Notes: generated by a model from the sequence alone, not told the origin. Numbered from the stretch's first letter, positions 6,099 through 31,028 are shown. The stretch is DNA of 64,000 nt from Candidatus Shapirobacteria bacterium (GCA_041658955.1 JBAZZE010000002.1:12505-76504), one strand, 5' to 3'. Numbers and translations are program-made.

Positions 6099-6099
6099 G

Positions 6100-6693: not shown

Positions 6694-6700
6694 AGTGGAA

Positions 6701-7810: not shown

Positions 7811-7812
7811 AT

Positions 7813-8955: not shown

Positions 8956-8958
8956 ATA

Positions 8959-16388: not shown

Positions 16389-16455
16389 TATACCAATACT
16401 TAGTTTAATCTTTTATAAAAATATAAATAAATAGTGTTTATATAATTTAATATAC

Positions 16456-16464
16456 TGTTATAAT
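16456..16464 (+). promoter_or_regulatory. Candidate extended -10 element (TGtTATAAT) 6 nt upstream of the acyltransferase ATG, possibly a leaderless transcript
   Basis: TGTTATAAT at 16456..16464 in an 82-bp AT-rich divergent intergenic region. There is no SD sequence before the ATG at 16471. The background is AT-rich, so a chance match is plausible. Confidence 0.2.
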
Positions 16465-16470
16465 GTAAAA

Positions 16471-17445
16471 ATGAGAGACAAAGTAATAGACGTAGCAAGA
16501 GGGATTGCTATTATTTTGGTAATTATAGGACACTCGATACAATATAGTGTACCAGCTTTTGATAGTAATTTAATTTTTAGATACATTTATTCTGTTCACA
16601 TGCCGTTGTTTATGTTTATAAGTGGTTATACATTATTTTTTAGTAGAAATAGAATAAATATTAATTTTTTGATTAAAAAATTCAATTTACTTGTAGTCCC
16701 CTTTTTCTCTTGGTTTATTATTAGTTTTTATTTAAAAAACACTTATTTAACTCAAAGTTTCATCACTAGGTTAATCCAACTTTTAAAGTCACCTGATTAC
16801 GGATTGTGGTTTTTATGGGTGCTTTTTTTAATAAATATTATTTTTATTTTATTATTTTTTATTATTGATAAATTAAAATTTTACGAACTAGAAGATATAT
16901 TTATAATATTTGGTATTTACTTAATCTCAATAATTCCAACAAATGTATTAGGATTGCATCTAGTAAAGTGGTATATTGTATTTTTTTGTATAGGTTATTT
17001 TGTATCAAAGTTTAAAACTATATTATTAAAATCATTGGTTAATTATCAATTTTTAGCGGTATTGCTTTTTGTACCATTTGCATATTTCTGGAATAGAACA
17101 ACCCCACCATCTTTTAATTTGTATTTAGGAAACCATTTTACAAGAGAAATTGTAACAGTAATTACTAGTTTGTATTTATATTTAACACCTTTAACAGGGA
17201 TTGCTACTATACTGTCTGTTTCTAACATTGTTTCAAAACTTAAATATTCAAATATATTTATCTTTATTGGTGGAATTACTTTAGAGATTTATAGTTTACA
17301 TACTTTTTTCTTACATACCCATGGTCAAAGTTTCCTTAATATAAGTTATACATTTTTTACAACTTTAGCTTCTACAATATTGGCCATAATTATATTGAAG
17401 AAAATTATGTTTCTTCGATATATTCTTTTTGGGAGGATAAGTTAG
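16471..17445 (+). CDS. Acyltransferase family 3 (OafA/NolL-like) integral membrane O-acyltransferase
   Basis: 324 aa with about 10 TM helices. The N-terminus RDKVIDVARGIAIILVIIGHSIQY fits the Acyl_transf_3 consensus (R...D..RG.Ai..Vv..H). Confidence 0.65.
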   Translation: MRDKVIDVARGIAIILVIIGHSIQYSVPAFDSNLIFRYIYSVHMPLFMFISGYTLFFSRNRININFLIKKFNLLVVPFFSWFIISFYLKNTYLTQSFITRLIQLLKSPDYGLWFLWVLFLINIIFILLFFIIDKLKFYELEDIFIIFGIYLISIIPTNVLGLHLVKWYIVFFCIGYFVSKFKTILLKSLVNYQFLAVLLFVPFAYFWNRTTPPSFNLYLGNHFTREIVTVITSLYLYLTPLTGIATILSVSNIVSKLKYSNIFIFIGGITLEIYSLHTFFLHTHGQSFLNISYTFFTTLASTILAIIILKKIMFLRYILFGRIS

Positions 17446-18803
17446 ATAAACTTAATTTTGTTAGTTGCAAATACGACCATTTTCATGAGTAACCATCCGT
17501 GTTTGAATCTAGATATGTTTGTTGATCCGTATTCCCTGGCTTTATATCGGATAGGTACTTCAGAGAATTTCAAATTCATCTTGGCACAACCAAAAATTAA
17601 ATCGTAATCTCCAAAAGGATCAAAATTTCCAAAATAATTTCGGTTTTTTTCAAGTTTTTTATAGTTTTCACTTGTAAGTACTTTGGTCCCGCATAAAGTG
17701 TCTTTAATTTGTTGATCTAGAAGCCATGAAAATGCAACTGAAAAAAATTTGTTACCAATTATATTCAAAAAACGCATAGCTTCATCTTCCATTGGATAAA
17801 CTAATCGACAACCGTTTATATATTCACCTTTCCCAGAGTTTATGGCATTGTAAAATTTCGGAAGATCTTCCGGTGGTACTGTAAGATCTGCATCTAAAAT
17901 CATTAAGATATCACCTGTTGCAATGGAAAAACCTTTTCTGACCGCATCCCCTTTTCCAATACCTGTTTGTTTTGTGTATAAAATATTTCTGTCTTTGTAC
18001 TTTTTAGCAATTCTAATGATTTCTTCGTAGGTTCCGTCTGTGGATCCGCCTTCTACAAAAATAATTTCAGTTTTTTTTCCCATAATTGGAGTTCTTAAGA
18101 CGGCGTTTTCAATATTACCCTTTTCATTTCTGGCGGCAATGACAACACTTACAGAGTGCTCCAATGGATTATTTTTTGTGTATCTAGCAATTATGTAATT
18201 AGTTAAATTAAATAATTTAAATACAGGGAACTTACCTACATATTTATTTAAAAGATTCGAAAATATAGGTATATAAATTGGAAAAAGAAACCTACTTCCG
18301 CTTTTTATAACTTGATAACCTTCTAAATCTAACAAATTACATATATCGTTGGTAGTAAGCCAATTAGTTCTTTTTTGTGGTGCCTTTAATCCTAGTTTTT
18401 CAGCTATATCAAGTAGAGGAAGCCATAAAAAGCTGTGGTAGTTTATTATTATCCGGGTATTTTCATTACAATTATTTTTTATTTGATTAAATAGGTACTG
18501 AATATCATTTATCTTTGATAATTGGTCAGAAATTATAATATAGTCAAAGGTACCTTTTATATTAATAGAATCTTCTTTTGCGTAAATGAACTTTATGTGA
18601 CGATATTTTTTTGTTGCGAATTCGACTAAATGTTTTTCAAACTCAATACCCACACCATTTTTCGGCTTTAAGCTATTAATTAAGTAGCCAGTTTTTGAGC
18701 CTATTTCAAGAACACTTGACCCTTCTGGAATATTAAATTTAAAGAAAGATTCTAAATCATGATGATAAAAAATATTTTTATTTATCCATTTTTCTTCATT
18801 CAT
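17442..18803 (-). CDS. Bifunctional class I SAM methyltransferase (N-terminus) and GT2 polyprenol-phosphate/DPM1-like glycosyltransferase (C-terminus) fusion
   Basis: 453 aa. N-terminal VLEIGSKTGYLINSL is SAM motif I. The C-terminal half has VSVVIAARNEKGNI...FVEGGSTDGT...ILDADLTVPPEDLPKF, a GT-A domain. Confidence 0.7.
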   Translation of the reverse strand: MNEEKWINKNIFYHHDLESFFKFNIPEGSSVLEIGSKTGYLINSLKPKNGVGIEFEKHLVEFATKKYRHIKFIYAKEDSINIKGTFDYIIISDQLSKINDIQYLFNQIKNNCNENTRIIINYHSFLWLPLLDIAEKLGLKAPQKRTNWLTTNDICNLLDLEGYQVIKSGSRFLFPIYIPIFSNLLNKYVGKFPVFKLFNLTNYIIARYTKNNPLEHSVSVVIAARNEKGNIENAVLRTPIMGKKTEIIFVEGGSTDGTYEEIIRIAKKYKDRNILYTKQTGIGKGDAVRKGFSIATGDILMILDADLTVPPEDLPKFYNAINSGKGEYINGCRLVYPMEDEAMRFLNIIGNKFFSVAFSWLLDQQIKDTLCGTKVLTSENYKKLEKNRNYFGNFDPFGDYDLIFGCAKMNLKFSEVPIRYKAREYGSTNISRFKHGWLLMKMVVFATNKIKFI

Positions 18804-18810
18804 AGTTTTT

Positions 18811-20754
18811 TTAGTTTAAAACGATATCGTTTCCAATTTTTAAATTTGTCACACTGTCAAACATTTGTAACTTTAATGTACAGTCATTGTCGACATTGCT
18901 GAACGTATTGTTGATTATAATGTAATTTTGATCATTTAAATGGTTTTCGTCAGTATTGAATAACCATGTTTCTGGAGAAAAAAATGTTTGCCCTTCTCGT
19001 ATTGGTATTTTTGCTAGAGTGCAACTAATTTTAAAAACGTATTCATCGTGAGGTGTGTAATCATTCTGACTGATTACAGCAGAAAACTGAACATATTTGC
19101 TGGTTTTGCTTAACGTATAGGATAAGACTGATATTTTATTATTAAAAGGTTTTGTGACATCAGATTGCGTCTTTTTAATAATTGGAAAAAATATTTTATA
19201 GATATTTATATTTTTACCTGTATTACTTATGAATGTTTTTTGAAGTGAATAAGGAATGGCGCTATTTTCAATTAGTTTGTTAAAACTAGTAAATATTTCT
19301 AAATCCCGACTGTTCGAAATTTCGTCAGATATTATTATGTAATCAGGATCGATTACTTTAATTCTTGACAGAATATCATCGGTCGAATTTCTATTTAATA
19401 CTGGTCCGGTAAAATAAATATTCTCATTGGGGTGAGTTTTGGCAAGCAGATAAGAATAATTGTTATGGTTTATCTGGCTTTTACTATCAAGTACAAGGCT
19501 ATATCTTGAGTATTTTGGTTGTCCAGAAATATAATCAATAATTTCCTGAGTTTTCCAGTTGTTTTGGCTTGGGGAATATAAATGACTTGATGAATCTGTT
19601 TTTATTTTGTTAAAAAAAGATAGGTTAAATAGTTGGTATATTGGAAAAATAAATAATAATATCCAAAAAATATTTTGATGTTTCTTTTTAAACTTATATT
19701 CATTTATTAACAATGATATCTGTATTGCTAACACAGGTAAAATTGGTTGAATGTATCTAATTTCCTTGTTCACTCCGAATGTTAAAAGTAATGCCGGAAA
19801 TAAAAACCATGAAAATAAAAATAAAAAGATGTTCAGTTTTTCCCTGTTTAAGTTTTTAAAACTGAATAAGCTTGCGATTAGTAGAATAGAGTAATATACC
19901 GAGATCCCATTTCTTGAGATACTTTTGAAATAATTTAGAACCGTTGATAATGAATATACATTTGTTGATCCATAATCTTTGGCAATTTCACCATAAGATG
20001 TTGAAATTGCAAACTTTGAGATAGTATTAAAATTTGGATAATACCAAGTAGACGATACAACAATAAAAATAAATATTGCGACTGAAATATTTATTATTAT
20101 TTTTTCTAATGGGACATTTTTTTTGGTAATTTCTTTTATGAAAATATAAACACTTGGAACTAATACATACATTGGAAAGTTCACTTTGGTAAGTAGTCCT
20201 AATGCAGCAACTATACCTAGAGAGATGCAATTACGGATTGAGTGAAACACATTGTCTTTGAGCAATATCTGCAAAAAGATAACGACAAGTAATGTAAGTA
20301 AGTACTCAACATAGAATTGTCTATTCAATGCATAAAATAGAGGCATAGTTTGAGTAATAAATACCGAAATTAATGCTACTTTTATATTTACTAATTTTCT
20401 AACTAATAAAAATAAATAATAGTTAAGTAACAATAATGAGACCCAATTTACTATCATAGCAGCGTTCTCTTTTGGTCCTAATATAAGGTAAAAAGGTAGT
20501 GGTAGTAAGCTTAATAATGGTGCTTTTTGACCACTAAAAGCATTAACGTAGCTTTTTGAGAGTCCACTCAACCCTTCAGATTTATAGCTGTTGTATATAT
20601 GTATTGAGTTTTCTAGATACCAAGATTGATCATACGATGGAAGCGCGGTATCTCTTTTTGTCCAATAAATGTTAATCGCAACTAATAAAATAGAAAAAAG
20701 GGCTAGAAATATATACTCTATCCTCACTTTTTTCAGTAAAGTTAAGGAAATCAT
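18811..20754 (-). CDS. Large polytopic membrane protein, GT-C-fold glycosyltransferase-like with a C-terminal extracytoplasmic domain
   Basis: 647 aa. The N-terminal ~400 aa has at least 10 TM helices with a first-loop acidic motif (SYDQSWYLEN). The C-terminal ~200 aa is soluble. The gene is very AT-rich. Confidence 0.45.
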   Translation of the reverse strand: MISLTLLKKVRIEYIFLALFSILLVAINIYWTKRDTALPSYDQSWYLENSIHIYNSYKSEGLSGLSKSYVNAFSGQKAPLLSLLPLPFYLILGPKENAAMIVNWVSLLLLNYYLFLLVRKLVNIKVALISVFITQTMPLFYALNRQFYVEYLLTLLVVIFLQILLKDNVFHSIRNCISLGIVAALGLLTKVNFPMYVLVPSVYIFIKEITKKNVPLEKIIINISVAIFIFIVVSSTWYYPNFNTISKFAISTSYGEIAKDYGSTNVYSLSTVLNYFKSISRNGISVYYSILLIASLFSFKNLNREKLNIFLFLFSWFLFPALLLTFGVNKEIRYIQPILPVLAIQISLLINEYKFKKKHQNIFWILLFIFPIYQLFNLSFFNKIKTDSSSHLYSPSQNNWKTQEIIDYISGQPKYSRYSLVLDSKSQINHNNYSYLLAKTHPNENIYFTGPVLNRNSTDDILSRIKVIDPDYIIISDEISNSRDLEIFTSFNKLIENSAIPYSLQKTFISNTGKNINIYKIFFPIIKKTQSDVTKPFNNKISVLSYTLSKTSKYVQFSAVISQNDYTPHDEYVFKISCTLAKIPIREGQTFFSPETWLFNTDENHLNDQNYIIINNTFSNVDNDCTLKLQMFDSVTNLKIGNDIVLN

Positions 20755-23732
20755 TTGAACAAGGTTAAATATTTATCAAGATTTTTGGAATCATCGAGAT
20801 ATTTGTGAGAATATTTTAAGCAATTATCGGCTATTTTTTTATAGAGTTTCTTTGAATTAGACAAAAGACTAATTTTGCCTGCAAATTCATCAATGTTTTC
20901 GGACTCACACAAGTAACCATTACTTCCGTTTGTGATTATTGTAGGTAATCCACCGACTGATGAAGAAATTACCGGCTTCCCCATGGAGAGTGCTTCTAAA
21001 ACAGTATTGGGTCTTCCGTCTACTCTGGATGTTAGGACAAGGACATCGCTTGCATTCAAGAAAGCTCCCGGATGCACCATTCCTGTAAGTAATATTTTGT
21101 TATTGAGCTTTAACTTGTCAATTAAGTCTTGGCATTTTGCAAATTCTGGTCCTGGTCCTGCTAGTACAAAAAAAAGTTTTTTGTTTGATCTAAGTTTATC
21201 TGCTATTTTAATAAATATATCTGGACCTTTTTCTTCTGAAAGTCTTCCTATAAATGAAACAATAAACTTATTATGTGGCAGACCAATAGGCCATTCAGAC
21301 ATTGTTTTCCATCTTTCAATTTCGGTTAAGTCTACACCGTTTTGAATAAGAGTTACATTGCTAGAGGTTTCATTATAGACTTGGACTAATTCGTTATAAA
21401 CGTTTTCATTTTCAGCGATAGTATGATCAATGTATTTGGAATATTTGCGATTGCTGGTAAAGTGAACATCGGTGTTGAATTGTTGGTCAAAGATTTTTAT
21501 GTGAGGAAAATCGACTTTTAATTTCGGGAGAATTTCATAAAAGTATTTACTACCACCCAAAAAAATGGTTCCTATACCCCGTGTTTTTATGAGATATAAA
21601 ACAAACTCATAGTACTCCTTCTCATTTGTGTAGATATTGGGAAGATTGAACAAGTCTTTAGATATGTTGGAATATTCCTTTGACGTGTCTATAAGTAGTT
21701 CGTCAGCCTTAAGGGATGTGACAAATGATATATGAAAATTATTTTTGACAAGTTTTTTTGAAATTGCCCTGAATCTTTTATCAGCACCGCCAACTATGGT
21801 GTAAGGTAGTGCAAAAAGTATGTTTCTTTTGTTAAATTGTGTTTTTTTTGAACCGGCCATATTCTCAAGTGGATTGGTTGCAATGTATCTATCATTACGT
21901 TTGTAAAATTTAATTGAAGCTGTTTCGTTGGTATACAAATCTTTGTGAATTTCTTTTATAGTTTTGTAGAGTAAGTCGTTATTTTTTCTTGCATTATCAA
22001 TCATTGAAACACCATGTTTTCTATATAAGAATAATGGCTCTTCGACAACAGAACCCATTCCACCATTTTTGGCTATGTTTATCCAGAATTCCCAGTCTTC
22101 ATATCCCATTTTTTCCATTTTTGTCGAATAACCTCCGACTTTTTCCCATATTGATTTTGTAAATACTGAAGAAACTATTTGGCTATTGGATTTCATTATT
22201 ACTGCCAAGTCTAGTGGCTGTGTTTTCCAAATAAAGGAACCTCCTTCAAATTCTTGTAACCATGAACCGCAAACGTCAAGCTTATTTGTTTCAAGGAGTA
22301 ATAAAGTTTTTTCTAGGTAAGTAGGAGCGATCATGTCGTCTGCGTCTAAGCAACAAATATATTTACCTTTAGCTACCTTTGTGCCATTATTTCTAGCCGT
22401 GGGTAATCGGCTATTGACTTGGTGAATTACTTTTATTTTTGGATTATTTATTTCTGAAAGAACTTTTTTTGTAAATTCATCAGTCGATCCATCATTTACT
22501 ACAATAATTTCAAAGTTTTGAAAAGTTTGTGACAATACTGAATCAATTGCATTGTTCAAATATTTTCCGTAGTTGAAACACGGGATAATTATACTAACTA
22601 ATGGTTTATCGTCTGGCCATTTTTCAAGTGTAAATTTAACTGGATGATATTTTATTTCGGTAACTAAATTCTTGATCTTTTTTTTGATATTCTTTAGTTT
22701 ATTTTTTATTCTTGAAACTATATTAGTCCTATTCGGGATAATTTTATCCAGAACACTTAACCTAATAAACATTATTATTTTCCATGAAAGGGAATTTTTT
22801 ATTTTTAAAATCTCATTATTTAAAATAAAGACATTTTTTTCATGTTGGTCAATTATTTTACTTTTCTCTTCCAAGATATTTGTGTATTTTATTTCTAATT
22901 CAGAAAGTGATCTGTTTTTGTGTAAACTATTTTTTTGTGTTGCTTTTAATTTTTCACCAAGTTCTTTAATTAGGCTCCTGGAATATATTAAATCAACCTC
23001 TTTACTAAGTATTATGTCTAAATATTTTTGACCTAAAAGTTTTTTATGTTTATTTAAAATATCTGACATGATGGATATTCTATTTGAGTCAGAGTTTTTC
23101 AACATAGAGCCTTTTCGATCTCGATAAAAGAATAGGACTTCCGGTATAACAATAGAGGTGTAACCTTTAGAAATTATTGAAATCCAAAAGTCCCAATCTT
23201 GGTAGCCAGATAATTTTGTATTGTACCCATCTACATCCTCCCAACATTTTTTTCTGAACAAAGAACTTACTGTAAGTGTATTTTTTACAAGACAATTTTC
23301 AAGTGTCATTTCCTCAGTTTCCCATATATAGTTGCTAGATTCGAAGACTTTTGCCCAACAAGAAACTATACCTATTTTGTTGCTAGTTTTGATTTTATTT
23401 ACTAGTTTCTTTATATAATTTTTATCTACGTAATCATCAGCATCGATACATGCGATATATTTCCCATTTGCTAACTTTATAGCATTATTTCTGGTGGCGG
23501 CCAGTCCTTGGTTTGTTTGGTCAATAAATATAATTTTGTCCTTATAATTTGCTTTTAGTTTTGTTAATTCTTTCAGAGAATAAGTATCGTCAGATCCGTC
23601 GTTAACAAGAATAATTTCAATGTTTTTGTAGCTTTGGTTAAGACAACTTGTAATACATGTCTCAACATATTTACCTAAATTAAAGTAAGGAATTACAATT
23701 GTTACTAAAGAGTTCGATTTGTTTTGGATCAC
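20751..23732 (-). CDS. Tri-domain glycosyltransferase: GT2, coiled-coil, GT2, GT4 (candidate glycan polymerase with a coiled-coil spacer)
   Basis: 993 aa. The first GT2 domain has VTIVIPYFNLGKYV...ILVNDGSDD...CIDADD. A ~100-aa heptad-rich charged linker follows (LKATQKNSLHKNRSLSELEIKYTNILEEKSKIIDQHEKN...KNKLKNIKKKIKNLVTEIK). The second GT2 domain has VSIIIPCFNYGKYL...IVVNDGSTD...CLDADD. The C-terminal GT-B domain has GRLSEEKGPD...LEALSMGKPVISSSVGGLPTII. Confidence 0.75.
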   Translation of the reverse strand: MIQNKSNSLVTIVIPYFNLGKYVETCITSCLNQSYKNIEIILVNDGSDDTYSLKELTKLKANYKDKIIFIDQTNQGLAATRNNAIKLANGKYIACIDADDYVDKNYIKKLVNKIKTSNKIGIVSCWAKVFESSNYIWETEEMTLENCLVKNTLTVSSLFRKKCWEDVDGYNTKLSGYQDWDFWISIISKGYTSIVIPEVLFFYRDRKGSMLKNSDSNRISIMSDILNKHKKLLGQKYLDIILSKEVDLIYSRSLIKELGEKLKATQKNSLHKNRSLSELEIKYTNILEEKSKIIDQHEKNVFILNNEILKIKNSLSWKIIMFIRLSVLDKIIPNRTNIVSRIKNKLKNIKKKIKNLVTEIKYHPVKFTLEKWPDDKPLVSIIIPCFNYGKYLNNAIDSVLSQTFQNFEIIVVNDGSTDEFTKKVLSEINNPKIKVIHQVNSRLPTARNNGTKVAKGKYICCLDADDMIAPTYLEKTLLLLETNKLDVCGSWLQEFEGGSFIWKTQPLDLAVIMKSNSQIVSSVFTKSIWEKVGGYSTKMEKMGYEDWEFWINIAKNGGMGSVVEEPLFLYRKHGVSMIDNARKNNDLLYKTIKEIHKDLYTNETASIKFYKRNDRYIATNPLENMAGSKKTQFNKRNILFALPYTIVGGADKRFRAISKKLVKNNFHISFVTSLKADELLIDTSKEYSNISKDLFNLPNIYTNEKEYYEFVLYLIKTRGIGTIFLGGSKYFYEILPKLKVDFPHIKIFDQQFNTDVHFTSNRKYSKYIDHTIAENENVYNELVQVYNETSSNVTLIQNGVDLTEIERWKTMSEWPIGLPHNKFIVSFIGRLSEEKGPDIFIKIADKLRSNKKLFFVLAGPGPEFAKCQDLIDKLKLNNKILLTGMVHPGAFLNASDVLVLTSRVDGRPNTVLEALSMGKPVISSSVGGLPTIITNGSNGYLCESENIDEFAGKISLLSNSKKLYKKIADNCLKYSHKYLDDSKNLDKYLTLFK

Positions 23733-24355
23733 TTGCGTTTGAATATTTGAATGTTATCTATGTACCAGTATTGAATGCCGTTTATTTGTTTCATTTTGTC
23801 TTTTAAATTTAGTGTTAGTTTTTTGTCATAATGAAAGCCTTTGTTTTTGAACTTTTGCTCCCACCACTTTTTTGATTTTAAATTGACATGATCATGTCCA
23901 GTTTGACCTGGTGTAGCAGCTGTAAATATAATTGTGTCACTAGATTCCGTAAGACTTTGGATTAAGTTTGTAGAAAACTTTTCTTCAACATGCTCTGCAA
24001 CTTCTAAGCATAAACATAAATCAAATTTTGATGTACTATGGTAAACATTTCTTAAGTCAAAAATTTTAAAATTCTTGGAGTTTATTTTTCTGTACTTGAA
24101 ATTTGATTTACTACCATCAATACCTAAAATTTTTATATTGTGTTTTTCAAAAGGCTTGATTATATCCCCAGTCCCGCATCCAAAATCAATTACCGAATTT
24201 GGATCTATTTGTTTAATGATAAGTAGCGCGAATTTATCTACCCAGTTTTTATCTCTTAATTCTGATGTGGCAAATTTATCATCATAAATTATGTTTAGAT
24301 CTAGTTTTAAATATTTTAAAATTCGTATGATAAACGTGTTTATTTTGTTGTACAT
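23729..24355 (-). CDS. Class I SAM-dependent methyltransferase
   Basis: Motif I is VIDFGCGTGDIIKPF and motif II-like is DLCLCLEVAEHV. The track ORF extends to 24439, but the start at Met29 (24355) avoids a 77-nt same-strand overlap with the upstream GT4, so I prefer the shorter start. Confidence 0.65.
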   Translation of the reverse strand: MYNKINTFIIRILKYLKLDLNIIYDDKFATSELRDKNWVDKFALLIIKQIDPNSVIDFGCGTGDIIKPFEKHNIKILGIDGSKSNFKYRKINSKNFKIFDLRNVYHSTSKFDLCLCLEVAEHVEEKFSTNLIQSLTESSDTIIFTAATPGQTGHDHVNLKSKKWWEQKFKNKGFHYDKKLTLNLKDKMKQINGIQYWYIDNIQIFKRK

Positions 24356-24362
24356 ATATGAT

Positions 24363-25508
24363 CTATGGGATTTGTAGTATTTTATCAAGAAAAGTAATAG
24401 ATTTATCCCAAGAATAATTTTTAGTGGTCTTCGCTCCATTTTTCACCAATCTTGAAAAAAGTGAATTGTCTCTTATCAATTTTTGTATTTTTTTAATTGT
24501 GTTTTCTATTTCTCCAGCATTAGTTACAAGTGCATTTTTTCCGTCGACAATATATTCATCATAGCCTGTTACTTTGGCAACTATTGGTACACCTCCACAA
24601 GCCATCATCTCAAGTGGAGGGCCAAAAAATCCTTCTACTGTAGAGAGCTTTAATAGTATGTCGCACGAAGAATAGATGTGACGCATCTGATCCATTGGAA
24701 CTCTTTCGAAAAAACGATCACAATGCCACTCTGGTTTTGGTTGTCCATCATAGGAGACACACCAGACTTCACAGTCAATATCTTTAATTACTTTGAATGC
24801 TTCTTCCATACCTTTGAATGGCAAATTTATGGCACCTTCAAGTAAAATACGTTTTTTATTTTTTGGTTTTGTTTCTAGTGGGGTATCTGGATAAAAAATA
24901 TCAGTATTTATCCCGTTTGGGACATAGTAAGATTCTTTGCCAAAATTGTCTTTGAGAAATATTTGGAGCCACTTGGCTATGGCAATAAATTCGAACGGGA
25001 AAGTGTAGGTGCGACGCACACGTTCTTTCAGATAACTTCCTGTAGGATAAAAACGGGTTTCGTCTGATTGAACTAAATATATTTTTCTTTTAACGTTAAG
25101 GAGTAAGACTTCATAGGCCGTGATCCAGCCGGTGGCGACTACCGTCTGGTAAGTTTCGATGAGTGTTTTGTTGCCCTGAAGTGGAACTACTTTAACCTCT
25201 TGCCCTGGAAACCAGGATAAATCAGACTTGTTGTCATGGCTGGCAATAAGAGTATTGTAACCAAGTTTTTGTAATCTATTAAGATGTTCACAAACTACAG
25301 CAACTCCACCGGTGATATTAGTTGTGGGAATAATGTAGCAGATGGATTTTGGAATAGTTTTTGTTTCTTTCTTTTTGGAAAATTTTGAAGATAGATATCG
25401 TAATAAAAATATAATGTCTTCTAAAACATATTGAGGATTTCTTATCTGAGTGCGAATTATTTCTGGAACTAGTTTTCTATATAGATTCATTTGTCTTATA
25501 CCACTCAA
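24363..25508 (-). CDS. GT4 family glycosyltransferase
   Basis: 381 aa with a GT-B C-terminal domain (LSTVEGFFGPPLEMMACGGVPIVAKVTGYDEYI). Confidence 0.75.
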   Translation of the reverse strand: MSGIRQMNLYRKLVPEIIRTQIRNPQYVLEDIIFLLRYLSSKFSKKKETKTIPKSICYIIPTTNITGGVAVVCEHLNRLQKLGYNTLIASHDNKSDLSWFPGQEVKVVPLQGNKTLIETYQTVVATGWITAYEVLLLNVKRKIYLVQSDETRFYPTGSYLKERVRRTYTFPFEFIAIAKWLQIFLKDNFGKESYYVPNGINTDIFYPDTPLETKPKNKKRILLEGAINLPFKGMEEAFKVIKDIDCEVWCVSYDGQPKPEWHCDRFFERVPMDQMRHIYSSCDILLKLSTVEGFFGPPLEMMACGGVPIVAKVTGYDEYIVDGKNALVTNAGEIENTIKKIQKLIRDNSLFSRLVKNGAKTTKNYSWDKSITFLDKILQIP

Positions 25509-26427
25509 TAGTATTTTTTAGTCCAGTTTTAAAATCAGTACTGGCTTTAAAACTGAATTCTTTTTCTGCTTTTGAGGTATCAAGACACCTGCGGGGCTGA
25601 CCATCTGGCTTTGTGCTGTCCCAGACAACCTTACCTTCGTAACCAACTATTTCATTGATTGTTTCGACTAATTCTTTGATAGTGATCTCCATTCCTGAAC
25701 CAAGATTGACAGGGTCAGAACCATTGTACTTATCTGTCGCCATGACAATAGCCTTGGCGGCATCTTCGACATATAAAAATTCACGACTGGCACTGCCGGT
25801 TCCCCAGACTTCCATGGTGGGACTACCGGAATCCTTGGCTTCTATGGACTTTTTGATGAGAGCTGGAATGACGTGTGAGGAACTGGGGTCAAAATTATCA
25901 CCCGGCCCATAGAGATTGACAGGGAGAAGATAAATAGCGTTAAAACCATATTGTTGGCGGTAGGCTTGGGCCTGGACCAGAAGCATTTTTTTGGCAAGAC
26001 CATAAGGGGCATTGGTTTCCTCGGGATATCCGATCCATAGGTCAGATTCTTTAAAGGGTACTTGGGTGAACTTGGGATAGGCGCAAACAGTGCCGATGGC
26101 CACAAATTTTTTGATGCCGGCTTTGCGTGATTCCTCCATGAGCTGAGTGCCCATGATGATGTTGTCATAATAAAGTTCACCTGGTTTTTCGCGGTTGAAA
26201 CCTATTCCGCCTACCTTGGCGGCCAGATGGATGACAGTATCGATCTCTTGTAACGATTTTTTAATTTGGGGAACGTCTGTAAAATCTACCTCAGCGTGAG
26301 TTGGGTAATAAATATTTTGAGGGCTTACTCCTGCATCAATTAATTGTTTTTTAACATTTTGGCCCAAGAAACCACTGCCTCCGGTCAGGAGAATTTTTTG
26401 ATCAAACATTATTAGTAGTCCGCCCAA
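25477..26427 (-). CDS. fcl: GDP-L-fucose synthase (GDP-4-keto-6-deoxy-D-mannose 3,5-epimerase/4-reductase)
   Basis: 316 aa. [15 protein letters not shown] and a catalytic YGLAKKM (YxxxK) motif, with full-length similarity to Fcl/WcaG. It lies immediately downstream of gmd. Confidence 0.9.
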
Positions 26428-27488
26428 CTATTAACCTTGGCTTCGTTTTCGAGGTCGAATTGAACCATGATGGACACTAATTCTTTAAAATTAATTTTAG
26501 GTTCCCATTTCAATAACTTTTTAGCTTTTGATGGGTTACCTAATAAAAGGTCGACTTCTGCAGGGCGAAAATATTTGGGATCAACTTCGACTAATATTTT
26601 TTTAGTTTTTTTATCATAACCTTTTTCATCGACACCTTTGCCTTTCCAGATAATATCGATACCAACTTCTTTGAACGCCAACTCGGTAAACTCACGAACA
26701 CTGTGAGTCTCACCTGTGGCGATGACAAAATCATCAGGTTTGGGTTGTTGAAGAATTAACCACATGGCTTCGACATAATCTTTGGCGTGTCCCCAGTCAC
26801 GCTTGGCATCGAGGTTGCCTAAATATAATTTATCTTGCAGACCTAGCTTGATATTGGCAACTGCTCTGGATATTTTCCTAGTTACAAATGTCTTACCCCT
26901 TCGAGGTGATTCATGGTTGAAGAGGGTACCATTGCTGGCATGAAGCCCATAACTTTCACGATAATTTTTGGTGATCCAGTAAGCAAAAACTTTGGCGCAA
27001 CCATAGGGGGAACGTGGGTAAAATGGAGTGGTTTCATTTTGGGGTATTTCGACTACCTTGCCATACATTTCACTCGATGAGGCTTGGTAATAACGAGAAT
27101 TAGGTGCGTAATTACGGATAGCTTCAAGAATGCGAAGTGCACCATTAGCGACAATATTGGCCGTATATTCGGGAATTTCAAAACTAACTTGGACATGGCT
27201 TTGGGCTCCAAGATTATAAATTTCGTCTGGCTGGATTTCACGAATTAGCTTATCGATAACGGTAGGTTCACTTAAATCACCATAATGCAAAAAGATATGT
27301 ACATCTTTATTGTGTGGATCGCGATAGATGTGGTCGATACGACTGGTGTTGAAATTACTAGATCTTCTGATAATTCCATGAACTTCATATCCTTTTCCTA
27401 ATAGCAATTCAGCAAGGTAGCTACCGTCTTGACCGGTAATTCCAGTGATAAGGGCTTTTTTGGTTTTATTGTTTTTGATCGTTTTCAT
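26412..27488 (-). CDS. gmd: GDP-mannose 4,6-dehydratase
   Basis: [45 protein letters not shown] is near-canonical Gmd. The track ORF starts at 27533, but Met16 (27488) gives a typical Gmd N-terminus and a smaller overlap with wzt. Confidence 0.9.
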
Positions 27489-28206
27489 ATGTTTGGCAGA
27501 CTGTAGCGGTGTCTCCGATTTGTTGAAGTGCATGATGATTTATATAAATAGCACTGGTGCAAAAGGCTCTGACCTGCGGGAGTGAGTGAGAGACAAATAT
27601 AATGGTAACACCAGAATTTTTGAATTCTTCCATTTTGGAAAAACATTTGGCTTGAAAAGCGGTGTCGCCGACTGCTAGAATCTCGTCGACAATAAGAATT
27701 TCGGGATTGACATGAATGGCGATACTAAAGGCAAGGCGCATGTACATTCCAGAGCTGTAATGTTTGATGGGCTGGTCTATAAACTCGGTAAGTTCGGAAA
27801 AATCAAGAATACTTTGGAAATTATCATCGATTTGGCGACGGCTAAGTCCGAGTATGGCGCCATTAAGATAGACATTTTCTCGGCCGGTCAGTTCGGGATG
27901 CATGCCAGCGCCTAGTTCGATAAGGGGTGAGACTTTACCATGGACATGAATTTTACCCTTACTAGGACTCATGACACCGGCAATGAGTTTTAAAATAGTG
28001 GACTTACCGCTTCCATTGGGTCCGATAACGCCGACACACTCCCCTTTTTTGATTTCAAAACTGACATTACTAAAGACGGTAAATTTGTCGACTGTTTTTT
28101 CTCCGTAGATCAGAGCGGGAAGGAATTCTTTAAAAGTTTTCTGATTGTTGCGCGAGAAATCTTTGGTTACTTCATCGAATTTGATGGCTATATTATTTAT
28201 TTCCAT
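27466..28206 (-). CDS. wzt: ABC transporter ATP-binding protein, polysaccharide/teichoic acid export type (Wzt/TagH-like), short form without a C-terminal carbohydrate-binding domain
   Basis: 246 aa. Walker A is GPNGSGKST, the signature is [10 protein letters not shown], and Walker B is ILIVDE. It is paired with the ABC-2 permease just downstream. Confidence 0.85.
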
Positions 28207-28208
28207 AG

Positions 28209-29009
28209 TTAGACGTTGTCGGCGAATATCTTTTCGCGGGACTTGAAATAAGCTAGTCCTGTTAAAAGTGTAAAAATTGAAAGTATAAGCGCTATCGTCA
28301 GAGACAAATAGTTTGGCTCCCCTCCACCAAGGATTGTTTGGCGATAAGCATTAATTATCACTGCCATTGGGTTGAGTTGAAAAAGAAACTTATATCTCTC
28401 AGGTACGATATCCGCAGGGTAAATTATTGGGGTTAAGTACATCCAAAGCATTAAGACAAGGTTTAGTAAAAACTGAATATCACGATATAGGAGGTTGGCG
28501 GCAGCAAAAAATAAAGACAGACCCAATGTGAAGATTTGTTGAATTATAAAAATAGGAATTACCCAAAGAATATTGACATTAATAGGAATCTGGTAGGCAA
28601 TCATGTAGAACACGAGGATAGATAGGGCAAAGAGAAAATCAATTATCTTGGCTATGGTTGTGGCTAGAACTAATATAGTTCTAGGAAAATAGATTTTGGT
28701 GATTAAAGAGGCTGAGCTTACTAACGAACTGCATGAAAAAGAAAGAGAGTTGGAAAAAAGTGTCCAAGGTAGTAGCCCGACGAAGAGAAACACTGAATAA
28801 GGAATGTGTGAAGAAGCATTGGTGGGAATGCGCATGATGACAGAGAAGGCAAAAGACATAACCAACATCTGGGCTAAAGGATTGAGAATAACCCAAAAGT
28901 AGCCAAGAACTGACTGCTTGTAACGGGCCTTGACCTCACGACCAACCATCTGCCACAGAAGCTCCCGCCATTTTACGACCGCATGGAGTTCTTTTAGTAG
29001 AGACATCAC
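28209..29009 (-). CDS. wzm: ABC-2 type polysaccharide export permease (Wzm/TagG-like)
   Basis: 266 aa with 6 TM helices. N-terminal RELLWQMVGREVKARYKQSVLGYFWVILNPL is the ABC-2/Wzm signature. Confidence 0.85.
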   Translation of the reverse strand: MMSLLKELHAVVKWRELLWQMVGREVKARYKQSVLGYFWVILNPLAQMLVMSFAFSVIMRIPTNASSHIPYSVFLFVGLLPWTLFSNSLSFSCSSLVSSASLITKIYFPRTILVLATTIAKIIDFLFALSILVFYMIAYQIPINVNILWVIPIFIIQQIFTLGLSLFFAAANLLYRDIQFLLNLVLMLWMYLTPIIYPADIVPERYKFLFQLNPMAVIINAYRQTILGGGEPNYLSLTIALILSIFTLLTGLAYFKSREKIFADNV

Positions 29010-29149
29010 GAATCTATTATATACGTTAGAACGGTGATTGGGGGTGAATAGGCAGAGGTTTGAAGATTGCGCGTCACTGTCCGGTGCTTTGATCGGACCA
29101 TGTCGCTCCTCGCTATGACGTGGTGGTGATTGTAAGTTAAAATAGTGAC
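29010..29149. promoter_or_regulatory. Divergent intergenic control region (wzm to the left, SDR/CofD-like/TMTC/rSAM operon to the right) containing a GC-rich ~80-nt element
   Basis: This is the largest non-coding gap in the window at 140 bp. It is GC-rich relative to its surroundings, with TAAAAT 15 nt before the ATG at 29150. It contains the repeat described separately. Confidence 0.35.
29051..29123. repeat. Repeat copy A: GC-rich element GGCAGAGGTTTGAAGATTGC...CCATGTCGCTCCTCGCTATGACGTGG (homologous to 45912..45961)
   Basis: Direct by-eye alignment to copy B gives 19/20 identity over the first block and ~24/26 over the last block. Copy A carries a 27-nt insert containing a GTCCG...CGGAC hairpin. 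Confidence 0.7.
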
Positions 29150-31020: not shown

Positions 31021-31028
31021 TAGAATAT

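What the first reader, a model, noticed from the sequence alone, without database searches (positions are those of the whole stretch)
20751..29009. ABC-transporter-dependent glycan pathway with a 993-aa GT2, coiled-coil, GT2, GT4 candidate polymerase
A wzm/wzt pair lies at 27466..29009. The Wzt is a short form without a carbohydrate-binding C-terminal domain. It is directly upstream of gmd and fcl, a GT4, a methyltransferase, and a 993-aa protein with three glycosyltransferase domains. The first two domains are separated by a ~100-residue heptad-rich charged linker. In characterised ABC-dependent O-antigen systems such as E. coli O9a WbdA/WbdD and Klebsiella O12 WbbB, multidomain polymerases and coiled-coil segments set the chain length as molecular rulers. 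Here the coiled coil is built into the polymerase itself. Several methyltransferases in the locus could supply a chain-terminating methyl cap. This architecture is plausible but unverified for this lineage.
Basis: inference. Interest (0 to 1): 0.55.

Follow-up and report, generated by a model that had tools for sequence, protein, structure and literature searches.

The report
Coiled-coil glycan polymerase in CPR bacterium
A tiny-genome "candidate phyla radiation" bacterium carries an ordinary ABC-transporter sugar-polymer pathway. Its central 993-residue enzyme holds an extra glycosyltransferase on a rigid coiled-coil stalk above a two-enzyme polymerase, a layout already known from Klebsiella O-antigen enzymes that measure chain length, so this is a new member of a known design, not a new one.

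Summary
On the minus strand, wzm, a short wzt, gmd, fcl, a GT4, a methyltransferase and a 993-aa GT2-linker-GT2-GT4 gene form one tight operon. It continues into a GT-C and a methyltransferase-GT2 fusion.

The 993-aa protein is identical to a Candidatus Shapirobacteria (CPR) MAG protein, so "O-antigen" is the wrong label.

The linker has three parts: an 83-residue helix (230-312), a conserved hydrophobic helix (313-330) and a strongly cationic amphipathic helix (336-361).

Evidence from homologues:
- **Heptad-quantised stalk.** Across 51 homologues the stalk length is quantised in sevens (27/51 in one mod-7 class, P~7e-10).
- **Constant core, variable tip.** The GT2-GT4 pair is invariant (118/120 hits), while the module at the tip of the stalk varies between GT2, methyltransferase, GT4 and unrecognised.

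This is the WbbB / Klebsiella O7 ORF6 format (terminator, coiled-coil ruler, polymerase), which is already published. The stalk-tip GT2, not a free-standing methyltransferase, is the likelier terminator.

Against a canonical ruler system, this Wzt has no carbohydrate-binding domain. Nine of the 11 related loci with a nearby Wzt do have a C-terminal extension.

The ruler function is inferred, not shown. Verdict: new member of a known kind, moderate interest.

The parts
28209..29006 (-). Wzm, ABC-2 type permease (265-266 aa)
   Evidence: Pfam ABC2_membrane, E 5e-16. NCBIfam galactan Wzm / KpsM. Gene call.
27466..28206 (-). Wzt, nucleotide-binding subunit, short form (246 aa) with no C-terminal carbohydrate-binding module
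   Evidence: ABC_tran covers residues 46-176. NCBIfam matches only the nucleotide-binding domain of TagH and the galactan Wzt. There is no Wzt_C hit even at E<=1. It is 41-49% identical to the nucleotide-binding domains of long Wzts in related loci and 76% identical to the short Wzt of L001.
26412..27488 (-). gmd, GDP-mannose 4,6-dehydratase
   Evidence: TIGR01472, 588 bits (cut-off 415). Start taken.
25477..26409 (-). fcl-like GDP-L-fucose synthase family enzyme (3,5-epimerase/4-reductase)
   Evidence: NCBIfam GDPFucSynFcl aligns full length at 283 bits, below the cut-off of 500. All top PDB hits are GDP-L-fucose synthases, E 4e-61.
24363..25490 (-). Stand-alone GT4 glycosyltransferase (375 aa), candidate adaptor GT
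   Evidence: Glycos_transf_1, E 1.7e-15. A GT4 occupies the equivalent position in L001. The adaptor role is inferred.
23729..24355 (-). Class I SAM methyltransferase (208 aa); its stop overlaps the start of the 993-aa gene
   Evidence: Methyltransf_23/11/12/25. A stand-alone methyltransferase is present in all six examined loci of this type.
20751..23732 (-). 993-aa GT2 / coiled coil / membrane segment / GT2 / GT4 protein (the whole gene)
23049..23711 (-). Distal GT2 module (residues 8-228), DxD intact (D99, D100); candidate terminator
   Evidence: Pfam GT2. Invariant residues Q33, E39, S47, D99, D100, D179. It is an ancient paralogue of the central GT2, 41% identical. The terminator role is inferred.
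22797..23045 (-). Coiled-coil-type stalk, a single helix over residues 230-312
   Evidence: AF2 gives one uninterrupted helix with pLDDT 70-80. The heptad score exceeds the 99.9% shuffle level at 287-316. In homologues this segment's length is quantised mod 7.
22743..22796 (-). Conserved hydrophobic helix (residues 313-330) carrying the N-S-x-S-W-K/R motif
   Evidence: S314 is conserved in 44/51 homologues, with an aromatic residue at 317 and R/K at 324. The same 'SSKFWKLR' motif occurs in homologues with a methyltransferase or an unrecognised N-terminal module. AF2 helix 315-328.
22650..22727 (-). Cationic amphipathic helix (residues 336-361), candidate in-plane membrane anchor
   Evidence: Hydrophobic moment 0.58, net charge +8. 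It is the strongest amphipathic window in the protein, and only 0.25% of shuffles reach it. AF2 helix 336-361. The membrane-binding role is inferred.
21897..22616 (-). Central GT2 module (residues 373-612), polymerase half 1 (inverting family)
   Evidence: Pfam GT2. It is the most conserved module, at 42.5% mean pairwise identity. It occurs paired with the GT4 in 118/120 homologues.
20754..21836 (-). C-terminal GT4 (GT-B) module (residues 633-993), polymerase half 2 (retaining family)
   Evidence: Glycos_transf_1, E 1.5e-36. Foldseek TM 0.75-0.80 to BshA, PglA and WbnH.
18811..20754 (-). GT-C fold membrane glycosyltransferase (647 aa); its start overlaps the stop of the 993-aa gene
   Evidence: PMT_2, E 1e-11; Glyco_transf_22, E 4e-6. 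A PMT_2 GT-C is also present in the CPR loci L002 and L007.
17442..18803 (-). Methyltransferase-GT2 fusion (453 aa); the GT2 half resembles polyprenyl-phosphate hexose synthases (AglJ/GtrB/DPM1-like)
   Evidence: Methyltransf_23 at residues 20-167 and Glycos_transf_2 at 219-346. NCBIfam AglJ, E 1e-29; dolichyl-phosphate hexose transferase, E 2e-14.
16471..17445 (+). Acyltransferase_3 family membrane O-acyltransferase (324 aa), convergent with the operon end
   Evidence: Acyl_transf_3, E 4e-30. Acyl_transf_3 genes also occur in L001 and L003.

Best explanation
The minus-strand operon (about 29006 down to 17442) makes a polyprenol-linked cell-surface glycan in the cytoplasm of a CPR bacterium (Candidatus Shapirobacteria) and exports it through a Wzm/Wzt ABC transporter.

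Proposed working of the 993-aa protein:
1. It oligomerises through the 230-312 helix to form a coiled-coil stalk.
2. Residues 313-361 (a hydrophobic helix plus a +8 amphipathic helix) hold the C-terminal GT2+GT4 pair on the membrane.
3. That pair acts as a bifunctional polymerase, alternating an inverting (GT2) and a retaining (GT4) transfer to build a disaccharide repeat. One of the sugars is probably a 6-deoxyhexose supplied by gmd and fcl.
4. The N-terminal GT2 sits at the far end of the stalk. At 83 residues, the stalk would be roughly 12 nm if fully extended.
5. By analogy with WbbB and Klebsiella O7 ORF6, this distal GT2 adds a non-extendable capping residue only to chains long enough to reach it, so the stalk acts as a chain-length ruler.
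6. The translationally coupled 208-aa methyltransferase probably modifies the cap or the repeat unit.

After export, the GT-C enzyme decorates the chain, using a lipid-linked sugar made by the methyltransferase-GT2 fusion, and the acyltransferase also modifies it. The final acceptor (protein, peptidoglycan or lipid) is unknown.

Shown: gene content and order, domain architecture, the helical tripartite linker, heptad-phased length variation in the family, a constant GT2-GT4 core with a variable distal module, and linkage to wzm/wzt.

Inferred: oligomeric state, membrane anchoring, polymerase and terminator roles, ruler function, sugars and acceptor.
For: - **Architecture and pathway.**
- **Host.**: 100% identity to an NCBI Candidatus Shapirobacteria MAG protein.
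- **Linker structure.** AF2 with a 51-sequence alignment (pLDDT 88.6) gives one 83-residue helix at 230-312, then helices at 315-328 and 336-361, with no globular fold.
- **Heptad character.** The windows above the 99.9% shuffle level all lie in the linker, at 287-316 and 323-368. In 36/51 homologues the stalk segment exceeds its own 99.9% threshold, and in 41/51 it is the protein-wide maximum.
- **Heptad-quantised length.** The residue count between the GT2-N end and the conserved S/W motif ranges from 37 to 129. It falls in one mod-7 class in 27/51 and in the +3 class in 11/51 (corrected P~7e-10). No other period from 3 to 11 is significant. Among representatives below 50% identity, 12/23 fall in the same class, P~1.5e-4. 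This is what a register-preserving rigid coiled coil predicts.
- **Membrane segment.** Helix 336-361 has a hydrophobic moment of 0.58 and charge +8, the highest in the protein. The CC-then-amphipathic-helix order matches WbdD (PMC11231755).
- **Constant core, variable tip.** GT2C-GT4 is paired in 118/120 homologues. The N-terminal module is GT2 (69), unrecognised (27), SAM-methyltransferase (9), another GT2 (6) or GT4 (1). The coiled coil and the 'SSKFWKLR' motif are retained in seven of the eight homologues inspected by eye; the exception is the GT4-type P0010. Both known kinds of terminator, a glycosyltransferase and a methyltransferase, occupy this position in WbbB and KpO7 ORF6.
- **Transporter linkage.** wzm/wzt lie within 10 kb in 11 of 14 GT2-type loci. 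Nine of those 11 Wzts carry a 149-201-aa C-terminal extension, recognised as Wzt_C in L003 and L007. Five of the nine are CPR genomes (three Saccharimonadia/Saccharibacteria, two Moraniibacteria).
- **Both GT2 modules look active.** Both keep the DxD motif and the other invariant residues.
Against: - This locus's Wzt is the short form (246 aa) without any CBM. In all characterised terminator/ruler systems a CBM gates export (PMC11231755, PMC10629545). CBM-less systems such as Klebsiella O2a set chain length by coupling extension to export.
- The heptad signal in this protein itself is weak: 9.2 against a threshold of 8.7, in 3 windows.
- Its stalk count (88) lies in a minor class (4 mod 7).
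- The distal GT2 is a paralogue of the polymerase GT2 (41% identical). The two classes share the same residue at 26 of the 27 columns conserved in both, so it could equally be a third polymerising or branching activity.
- No multimer model could be made, so parallel versus antiparallel packing is unknown.
- No initiating phosphoglycosyltransferase and no ligase for the final acceptor could be assigned in the window.
- There are no chemical data.
Confidence: 0.45

Rival explanations
1. Scaffold-only reading. The coiled coil merely oligomerises the enzyme and tethers it to the membrane. The N-terminal GT2 is a third polymerising, branching or adaptor glycosyltransferase. Chain length is set, as in Klebsiella O2a, by obligatory coupling of extension to export through a CBM-less transporter. 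There is no terminator and no ruler.
For: - The Wzt has no CBM.
- CBM-less systems lack terminator-based length control (PMC11231755; PMC10629545).
- The distal GT2 is a close paralogue of the polymerase GT2 with the same catalytic signature.
- The best PDB match for the two GT2 modules is the two-GT2 chondroitin polymerase K4CP.
- A stalk with a distal module next to a short Wzt recurs in 7 of 17 such loci with a Wzt nearby, for example Pseudanabaena L009-L011.
- An antiparallel coiled coil would also show heptad-quantised lengths.
Against: - The GT2-GT4 pair alone is the conserved unit (118/120), and the N-terminal position is exchanged for methyltransferases or other modules. That fits an accessory activity better than a core polymerase activity.
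- Nine of 11 loci of exactly this architecture that have a Wzt nearby carry a CBM-sized extension.
- In all characterised coiled-coil proteins of this pathway the distal module is a terminator.
- A site about 12 nm from the other two is awkward for an activity needed in every repeat.
Confidence: 0.35
2. The coiled coil inside the polymerase is the ruler, and the chain-terminating cap is a methyl group added by one of the free-standing methyltransferases of the locus.
For: - A 208-aa SAM-methyltransferase is translationally coupled to the 993-aa gene.
- Stand-alone methyltransferases sit next to wzt in L002, L003, L006 and L007.
- Methyl caps terminate E. coli O8 / Klebsiella O5 O-antigens and the Geobacillus S-layer glycan.
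- In nine homologues a methyltransferase is fused at the distal position.
Against: - The 208-aa methyltransferase has no coiled coil or recognisable docking region, so the ruler cannot position it.
- In characterised systems the terminating activity is physically on the distal end of the stalk. Here that position is taken by a GT2 with an intact active site.
- There is no CBM to read a methyl cap.
Confidence: 0.1
3. The locus makes a lipopolysaccharide O-antigen that is ligated to lipid A-core in a diderm envelope.
For: - The gene set resembles rfb loci.
- Some sources name homologues 'O-antigen biosynthesis protein'.
- A weak Wzy_C-like ORF lies at 3301-4683.
Against: - The protein is identical to one from a Candidatus Shapirobacteria MAG.
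- CPR bacteria are, by general knowledge, monoderm-like and lack LPS genes.
- The best NCBIfam match of the Wzt is the teichoic-acid exporter TagH.
- Wzy_C domains also occur in the O-oligosaccharyltransferases of Gram-positive S-layer glycosylation.
Confidence: 0.03
4. The inter-domain region is a flexible low-complexity linker or a degenerate catalytic domain, and its heptad-like appearance is only the K/N/I-rich composition of an AT-rich genome.
For: - Local GC is 28-31%.
- The heptad score of this protein is marginal.
- pLDDT is below 50 at residues 328-341.
Against: - AF2 predicts long helices with pLDDT 70-80 and no beta/alpha fold.
- No Pfam or NCBIfam domain is found there.
- The shuffle controls keep composition.
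- Mod-7 quantisation across homologues from many phyla and compositions cannot be a composition artefact.
Confidence: 0.03

Closest known systems
WbbB of Klebsiella pneumoniae O12 / Raoultella terrigena (single-polypeptide terminator, coiled coil and polymerase)
   Same: It has the same order of parts: an N-terminal glycosyltransferase at the distal end, a coiled coil, then two C-terminal GT modules that polymerise a disaccharide repeat. It also works with Wzm/Wzt (PMC11231755).
   Different: - There is no sequence relationship. The WbbB terminator is a GT99 beta-Kdo transferase, whereas the distal module here is a GT2 paralogous to the polymerase GT2.
- The O12 Wzt has a CBM that reads the Kdo cap; here there is none.
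- The host is a CPR bacterium, not an enterobacterium.
- The membrane-binding segment lies between the stalk and the polymerase.
ORF6 of Klebsiella pneumoniae O7 (methyltransferase-kinase, CBM, coiled coil, GT2, GT2)
   Same: A coiled coil separates a distal terminating module from GT2-containing polymerase modules in one polypeptide. Orthologues are reported in cyanobacteria and proteobacteria. The methyltransferase-type homologues of the present family (e.g. P0034, P0061) have the same general layout.
   Different: The distal module here is a GT2, not a methyltransferase-kinase. The polymerase pair is GT2+GT4, not GT2+GT2.
WbdD/WbdA of E. coli O9a (Klebsiella O3)
   Same: A coiled-coil ruler is followed by a membrane-associated amphipathic helix. 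The terminator is distal and the polymerase is membrane-proximal.
   Different: In that system the terminator and the polymerase are separate proteins and the polymerase is recruited. The terminator is a kinase-methyltransferase, WbdD is a trimer, and export needs the Wzt CBM.
WsaE / WsaB S-layer glycan pathway of Geobacillus stearothermophilus NRS 2004/3a
   Same: - It is a monoderm host with an adjacent wzm-wzt pair.
- One multi-module enzyme combines a capping activity with two polymerising GT modules.
- The cluster has low GC.
- A Wzy_C-type transferase and a TPR protein lie nearby (PMC2943079). The window has a Wzy_C-like ORF at 3301-4683 and a TPR-bearing GT-C at 31029-32747.
   Different: WsaE caps with an N-terminal methyltransferase, and no coiled-coil ruler has been described for it; its in vitro methylation was independent of chain length. 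Homology to the present protein was not tested.
Klebsiella O2a (WbbM with a CBM-less Wzm/Wzt)
   Same: The Wzt is short and has no CBM.
   Different: The O2a system has no terminator and no coiled-coil ruler protein. Chain length is set by the stoichiometry and coupling of polymerase and exporter.
K4CP chondroitin polymerase (PDB 2z86/2z87)
   Same: It is the best solved-structure match for the two GT2 modules (E 9e-54 by profile; Foldseek E 5e-23).
   Different: K4CP has two adjacent GT2 domains, with no coiled coil and no GT4. The global TM-score is only 0.2-0.34.

Membership tests
ABC-transporter-dependent (Wzm/Wzt) glycan assembly pathway | Adjacent ABC-2 permease and nucleotide-binding subunit genes inside the glycan locus | tested here: met
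   ABC2_membrane (28209-29009) and ABC_tran (27466-28206). NCBIfam gives galactan Wzm/Wzt and TagH. The pairing is conserved in 11 of 14 related loci.
ABC-transporter-dependent (Wzm/Wzt) glycan assembly pathway | Cytoplasmic multi-module glycosyltransferase(s) able to build the whole polymer, with no Wzx flippase or Wzy polymerase in the operon | tested here: met
   The operon 29006-17442 contains a GT4 and the three-module GT but no Polysacc_synt or Wzy hit. A weak Wzy_C-like ORF lies 17 kb away in a different cluster.
ABC-transporter-dependent (Wzm/Wzt) glycan assembly pathway | An initiating polyprenyl-phosphate glycosyl-1-phosphate transferase (WecA/WbaP type) | tested here: not met
   No Glycos_transf_4 or Bac_transf hit was found in any ORF of at least 100 aa in the 64-kb window. 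As in many rfb loci, it may be encoded elsewhere.
WbbB-type terminator / coiled-coil ruler / polymerase proteins | One polypeptide with a distal catalytic module, an extended coiled coil and two or more polymerising GT modules | tested here: met
   GT2 (8-228), helix 230-312, GT2 (373-612), GT4 (633-993). The GT2-GT4 core is constant and the distal module is variable.
WbbB-type terminator / coiled-coil ruler / polymerase proteins | The spacer is a true, oligomeric coiled coil | tested here: inconclusive
   In favour: a single 83-residue AF2 helix, heptad scores and mod-7 length quantisation. The oligomeric state and strand orientation could not be modelled, and the signal in this protein alone is marginal.
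WbbB-type terminator / coiled-coil ruler / polymerase proteins | The distal module adds a chain-terminating residue, and stalk length sets chain length | not testable with these tools
   This needs the glycan structure and stalk-length mutants.
WbbB-type terminator / coiled-coil ruler / polymerase proteins | The partner Wzt carries a C-terminal carbohydrate-binding module that recognises the cap | tested here: not met
   The window Wzt is 246 aa and ends with the nucleotide-binding domain. There is no Wzt_C hit at E<=1. The feature is met in 9 of 11 related loci with a nearby Wzt (extensions of 149-201 aa; Wzt_C recognised in L003 and L007).
WbbB-type terminator / coiled-coil ruler / polymerase proteins | Sequence homology to WbbB (a GT99 terminator domain) | tested here: not met
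   The distal module is a Pfam GT2. No WbbB chain appears among the 60 best of the 126 PDB matches.
Lipopolysaccharide O-antigen | Host with lipid A-core, a WaaL ligase and an outer membrane | tested here: inconclusive
   The host is identified as Candidatus Shapirobacteria. The absence of LPS in CPR bacteria is general knowledge and was not tested on this genome. Only a weak Wzy_C-like ORF is present (23 bits, below the cut-off of 31.7).
CAZy GT2 (both modules) and GT4 | GT-A fold with a DxD motif (GT2); GT-B fold with the conserved C-terminal acidic motif (GT4) | tested here: met
   D99/D100 and D465/D466 are conserved, and E913 is invariant. Pfam scores are 224.6 and 126 bits. Fold matches are K4CP, BshA and PglA.

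The most novel reading that the evidence does not exclude
A CPR (monoderm, ultra-small) bacterium controls the length of a surface glycan with a WbbB-like molecular ruler. The terminator would be a GT2 paralogue of the polymerase's own GT2, and export would not be gated by a cap-reading CBM. If so, ruler-based termination and CBM-gated export are separable. It would also define a large, phylum-spanning and uncharacterised family (a heptad-phased stalk, an amphipathic anchor and a GT2-GT4 core, with exchangeable distal modules) as a general plug-in design for glycan capping.
Probability: 0.3. Interest if true: 0.55.

Novelty: new member of a known kind. Interest (0 to 1): 0.35.

Why it matters
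Almost nothing is known experimentally about the cell-surface glycans of CPR bacteria, which live attached to other cells. This locus sits in a 64-kb window that is almost entirely glycan genes.

If the ruler reading is right, these organisms make surface polymers of defined length using a design so far shown only in enterobacterial O-antigens.

The family-level observations give glycobiologists a compact set of testable predictions. These are the heptad-quantised stalk, the conserved anchor motif and the swappable distal module. They also supply many natural stalk-length variants. The CBM-less cases would test whether termination and export gating must go together.

The locus itself does not overturn anything. 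The architecture principle is already published.

Tried and rejected
- **Promoter and terminator scan** of 15300-29300. Promoter-like sites numbered 73 against 61.7±8.1 in shuffles, and terminator-like sites 4 against 6.9. The scan was uninformative.
- **Solved structures.** PDB sequence-profile and Foldseek searches gave only single-domain relatives (K4CP, BshA, PglA, TarS/TarM). No solved protein has this architecture.
- **Multimer and geometry checks.** No AF2 coordinate file was available to scripts, so stalk geometry could not be measured. No multimer prediction is offered, so parallel versus antiparallel packing remains open. The second structure job was not used because a monomer model of a fragment would not resolve this.
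- **Standard coiled-coil predictors** (COILS, Marcoil, DeepCoil) were not available. I used my own heptad-register score with composition-preserving shuffles, which is crude.
- **Papers not held.** Key papers could not be read: WbbB (PNAS 2017), the WbdD ruler (NSMB 2015), the Mann et al. 2019 survey and the 2020 JBC review. What is said about them comes from PMC11231755, PMC10629545 and PMC3482155.
- **CPR envelope literature.** A search on CPR envelopes returned nothing directly useful.
- **Degenerate-domain idea rejected.** There is no Pfam hit in the linker and the AF2 model there is entirely helical.
- **Recent-duplication idea rejected.** I considered that GT2-N is a recent duplicate or the product of gene conversion. 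In one search, 50 of 51 N-terminal domains have another N-terminal domain as nearest neighbour, and all 51 central domains have another central domain, so the duplication is ancient.
- **Unused resources.** The large representative-protein search and the metagenome scan were not used. The GTDB genome scan gave enough loci.

Full report
**1. What is there**

The region is a tight minus-strand operon. In order it encodes:
- Wzm (28209-29009; ABC2_membrane).
- Wzt (27466-28206; 246 aa).
- gmd (TIGR01472, 588 bits).
- An fcl-family enzyme. Every top PDB relative is a GDP-L-fucose synthase.
- A GT4.
- A class I SAM methyltransferase.
- The 993-aa ORF at 20751-23732.

A GT-C membrane glycosyltransferase (18811-20754) overlaps the stop of the 993-aa gene. 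It is followed by a methyltransferase-GT2 fusion (17442-18803) whose GT2 half resembles polyprenyl-phosphate hexose synthases (AglJ, E 1e-29). An Acyl_transf_3 gene is convergent with the operon end.

The same arrangement occurs on two independently assembled contigs. Their gene calls trim several ORF starts: gmd starts at 27488, fcl at 26409, GT4 at 25490 and the methyltransferase at 24355.

**2. Host**

The 993-aa protein is 100% identical to an NCBI entry from a Candidatus Shapirobacteria MAG, on a 100-kb contig. That places it in a member of the Candidate Phyla Radiation.

By general knowledge (not tested here), CPR bacteria lack LPS and an outer membrane. The O-antigen vocabulary is therefore inappropriate. 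Three further points fit this:
- The best NCBIfam match of the Wzt is the teichoic-acid exporter TagH.
- The closest functional analogy is the ABC-transporter-dependent S-layer glycan pathway of Gram-positive bacteria. That pathway has wzm/wzt, the trifunctional WsaE, a Wzy_C-type O-oligosaccharyltransferase and a TPR partner (PMC2943079).
- The window does contain a weak Wzy_C-like ORF (3301-4683) and a TPR-bearing GT-C next to wzm (31029-32747).

**3. The 993-aa protein**

Pfam finds two GT2 domains and one GT4 domain and nothing between residues ~240 and 375.

I aligned 51 full-length homologues (29-42% identity). Both GT2 modules keep their DxD motifs: D99/D100 are invariant, and D465/D466 are at least 90% conserved. 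The GT4 keeps E913.

AlphaFold2 on this alignment (pLDDT 88.6, pTM 0.64) gives:
- A GT-A fold at 10-228.
- One uninterrupted helix at 230-312 (pLDDT 70-80).
- A helix at 315-328.
- A low-confidence loop.
- A helix at 336-361.
- A second GT-A fold at about 379-610.
- A GT-B fold at 636-993.

The middle region is helical.

The linker is tripartite, not a uniform charged coiled coil:
- **Stalk helix, 230-312.**
- **Hydrophobic helix, 313-330.** It carries a family-wide motif: S314 in 44/51 homologues, an aromatic residue at 317 and R/K at 324. The motif appears as "SSKFWKLR" in more distant homologues.
- **Amphipathic helix, 336-361.** Its hydrophobic moment is 0.58 and its net charge is +8. It is the strongest amphipathic segment in the protein, and only 0.25% of shuffles reach it. 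I read the last two elements as a membrane-interface anchor. This is an inference.

**4. Is the stalk a coiled coil?**

In this protein alone the evidence is modest. A simple heptad-register score exceeds the 99.9% level of composition-preserving shuffles only for 287-316, and for 323-368, which overlaps the amphipathic helix.

The family evidence is stronger:
- In 36/51 homologues the segment between GT2-N and the S/W motif exceeds the protein's own 99.9% threshold. In 41/51 it is the best heptad region of the whole protein.
- Several homologues have tandem heptad repeats in this segment.
- The number of residues between two alignment anchors (the end of GT2-N and the S/W motif) ranges from 37 to 129 but is quantised in sevens. 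27/51 fall in one mod-7 class and 11/51 in the class offset by three. The Bonferroni-corrected binomial P is ~7e-10.
- No other period from 3 to 11 is significant.
- The quantisation persists with other anchors (20/51, P~8e-5) and among 23 representatives below 50% identity (12/23, P~1.5e-4).

Insertions and deletions that preserve heptad phase are what a rigid, register-dependent coiled coil predicts. A flexible linker does not predict them.

The window protein's own count (88) lies in a minor class. That would correspond to a four-residue stutter or to an anchor misplacement.

**5. What is constant and what is swapped**

I used local HMMs on the 120 best database hits. The central GT2 and the GT4 occur as a pair in 118/120, and four proteins contain the pair twice.

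The module ahead of the stalk is:

| Distal module | Proteins |
|---|---|
| The paralogous GT2 | 69 |
| Nothing recognisable | 27 |
| A SAM methyltransferase | 9 |
| Another GT2 | 6 |
| A GT2-GT4 pair | 2 |
| A GT4 | 1 |

The stalk and the anchor motif are retained across the methyltransferase-type, unrecognised and tandem types that I inspected by eye. The GT4-type P0010 has no stalk.

The distal GT2 is 41% identical to the central GT2 of the same protein. The duplication is ancient: 50 of 51 N-terminal modules have another N-terminal module as nearest neighbour, and all 51 central modules have another central module.

The distal GT2 is somewhat more divergent than the central one, at 36% against 44% mean pairwise identity in the joint N/C-domain alignment.

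**6. Comparison with known systems**

The Whitfield laboratory's work was read here through PMC11231755, PMC10629545 and PMC3482155. It establishes the following:
- Terminating enzymes in ABC-transporter-dependent pathways carry a hallmark coiled coil that acts as a molecular ruler.
- In WbdD the coiled coil is followed by a membrane-associated amphipathic helix.
- In WbbB (O12) and in ORF6 of Klebsiella O7 the terminator, the coiled coil and the polymerase GT modules are in one polypeptide.
- A CBM on Wzt reads the cap and gates export.
- CBM-less systems (O1/O2a) set chain length by coupling extension to export.

The present protein reproduces the WbbB order of parts with different catalytic families. 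"Coiled coil built into the polymerase" is thus the known format, not a new one.

By the same logic the candidate terminator is the distal GT2. The free 208-aa methyltransferase has no stalk and cannot be positioned by the ruler. It may methylate the cap or the repeat unit.

**7. The transporter problem**

The window Wzt has no CBM. No Wzt_C hit appears even at E<=1.

I examined related loci through exact-protein look-ups and a scan of GTDB species genomes. Results for loci whose enzyme has exactly this architecture:
- Of 14 such loci, 11 have a Wzt-type nucleotide-binding protein within 10 kb.
- Nine of those 11 carry a 149-201-aa C-terminal extension. Pfam recognises it as Wzt_C in a Nitrospirota locus (L003) and in a CPR Saccharimonadia-like locus (L007).
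- CPR genomes (Saccharibacteria, Moraniibacteria) account for five of the nine extended Wzts.
- Only the window and its close relative L001 have the short form. Their Wzts are 76% identical.

The family as a whole therefore mostly shows the full triad of distal module, coiled coil and CBM. This locus does not.

Short Wzts also accompany stalk-bearing enzymes in Pseudanabaena (L009-L011) and Acidimicrobiia (L038, L041). The combination of a stalk with no CBM thus recurs in 7 of 17 loci with a distal module and a Wzt nearby.

Two readings remain. Termination may proceed without gated export in these lineages, or the stalk may serve only as a scaffold there. This is the main reason my confidence in the ruler mechanism for this locus is below one half.

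**8. Most likely mechanism**

I put confidence in the full mechanism at 0.45.
1. The protein oligomerises through residues 230-312.
2. Residues 313-361 seat the GT2-GT4 polymerase on the membrane.
3. The polymerase alternates inverting and retaining transfers to build a disaccharide repeat on a polyprenol-linked primer. The stand-alone GT4 possibly extends that primer as an adaptor. gmd and fcl supply a GDP-6-deoxyhexose.
4. When the chain can span the stalk, the distal GT2 caps it. At 83 residues the stalk is roughly 12 nm if fully extended (my estimate).
5. Wzm/Wzt export the chain.
6. Outside the membrane, the GT-C enzyme uses a lipid-linked sugar made by the methyltransferase-GT2 fusion. 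The acyltransferase adds further decoration, in the manner of three-component systems (PMC11127046).

The acceptor of the finished glycan is unknown. No initiating transferase or LCP ligase was found in the window.

The main rival (0.35) keeps everything except the terminator and ruler roles. In that reading the stalk is a scaffold and the distal GT2 is a third polymerising or branching activity.

**9. Verdict**

- The object is a new, uncharacterised member of a known kind: WbbB-type terminator, ruler and polymerase fusions.
- It is found in an unusual host and paired with an atypical CBM-less transporter.
- Interest is moderate (0.35).
- The most useful products of this analysis are the family-level regularities: the heptad-quantised stalk, the conserved anchor and the exchangeable distal module. 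They make the ruler hypothesis directly testable.

Noticed in passing
window 50331-58231 (-) and 59541-61193 (+): There is a tandem array of ORFs of about 525-550 aa. Five of them (50331, 51922, 53495, 56636, 59541) are mutually 26-45% identical and hit PMT/PMT_2 (GT-C fold) weakly. With the GT-C genes at 1847-3304, 18811-20754 and 31029-32747, the window holds at least eight GT-C-like genes.
   Followed up: partly
window 55056-56639 (-): This 527-aa ORF sits inside the GT-C array. It has no Pfam hit and no BLAST similarity (E<=1e-5) to its neighbours.
   Followed up: no
window 32747-34141 (+), 35718-37286 (-), 37340-38788 (+), 42724-44259 (-), 44919-46484 (-): Five paralogous radical SAM proteins (23-29% identical) are interleaved with GT2, GT4 and methyltransferase genes. 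Four have a B12-binding domain. This suggests cobalamin-dependent modification, possibly methylation, of sugars or another substrate.
   Followed up: partly
window 636-11451 (-): A second glycan cluster lies here. It has four GT4 genes, two GT2 genes, a hexapeptide acyltransferase, a PMT-like GT-C (1847-3304) and a 460-aa ORF with a sub-threshold Wzy_C match (3301-4683). That ORF could be a polymerase, a ligase or an O-oligosaccharyltransferase. A Wzy_C gene also lies beside the related CPR locus L007.
   Followed up: partly
window 29150-32747 (+); L001 325-3032: An SDR epimerase, a CofD-like protein (2-phospho-L-lactate transferase family) and a 572-aa GT-C/TPR fusion are transcribed divergently from wzm. 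The CofD and GT-C/TPR pair is conserved next to wzm in L001. A CofD homologue in a glycan locus is unexplained.
   Followed up: no
window 17442-20754; L002 15811-18838; L007 15799-18828: A trio of a small GT2 (polyprenyl-phosphate sugar synthase-like), a SAM methyltransferase and a PMT_2 GT-C is conserved in CPR loci carrying this enzyme. In the window the methyltransferase and the GT2 are fused into one 453-aa protein.
   Followed up: partly
window 16000-24000: GC content drops to 28-31% over the polymerase, GT-C and acyltransferase genes, against 38-41% in the flanks. This resembles the low-GC cores of rfb and slg clusters and may indicate horizontal acquisition.
   Followed up: no
whole window: GC skew is positive in every 2-kb bin except two (16001-18000 and 22001-24000), although most genes in the 1-11 kb and 40-58 kb blocks are on the minus strand and others are on the plus strand.
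   Followed up: no
L001 3912-4917: In the closest related locus, a 23S_rRNA_IVP gene and an NYN-domain gene are inserted between wzm and wzt.
   Followed up: no
window 13391-14388 (+): A 223-aa GT2 is followed by a 109-aa DUF2304 membrane protein. The pair recurs on the independent contig L005 and may be another lipid-linked sugar synthase with a partner.
   Followed up: no
P0002, P0006-P0008; L061, L066, L070: Relatives include proteins with the GT2-GT4 pair duplicated in tandem (1275-1710 aa). There are also giant multi-GT open reading frames: 3949 aa in a Verrucomicrobiota MAG, plus ORFs of 2675 and 2135 aa.
   Followed up: no
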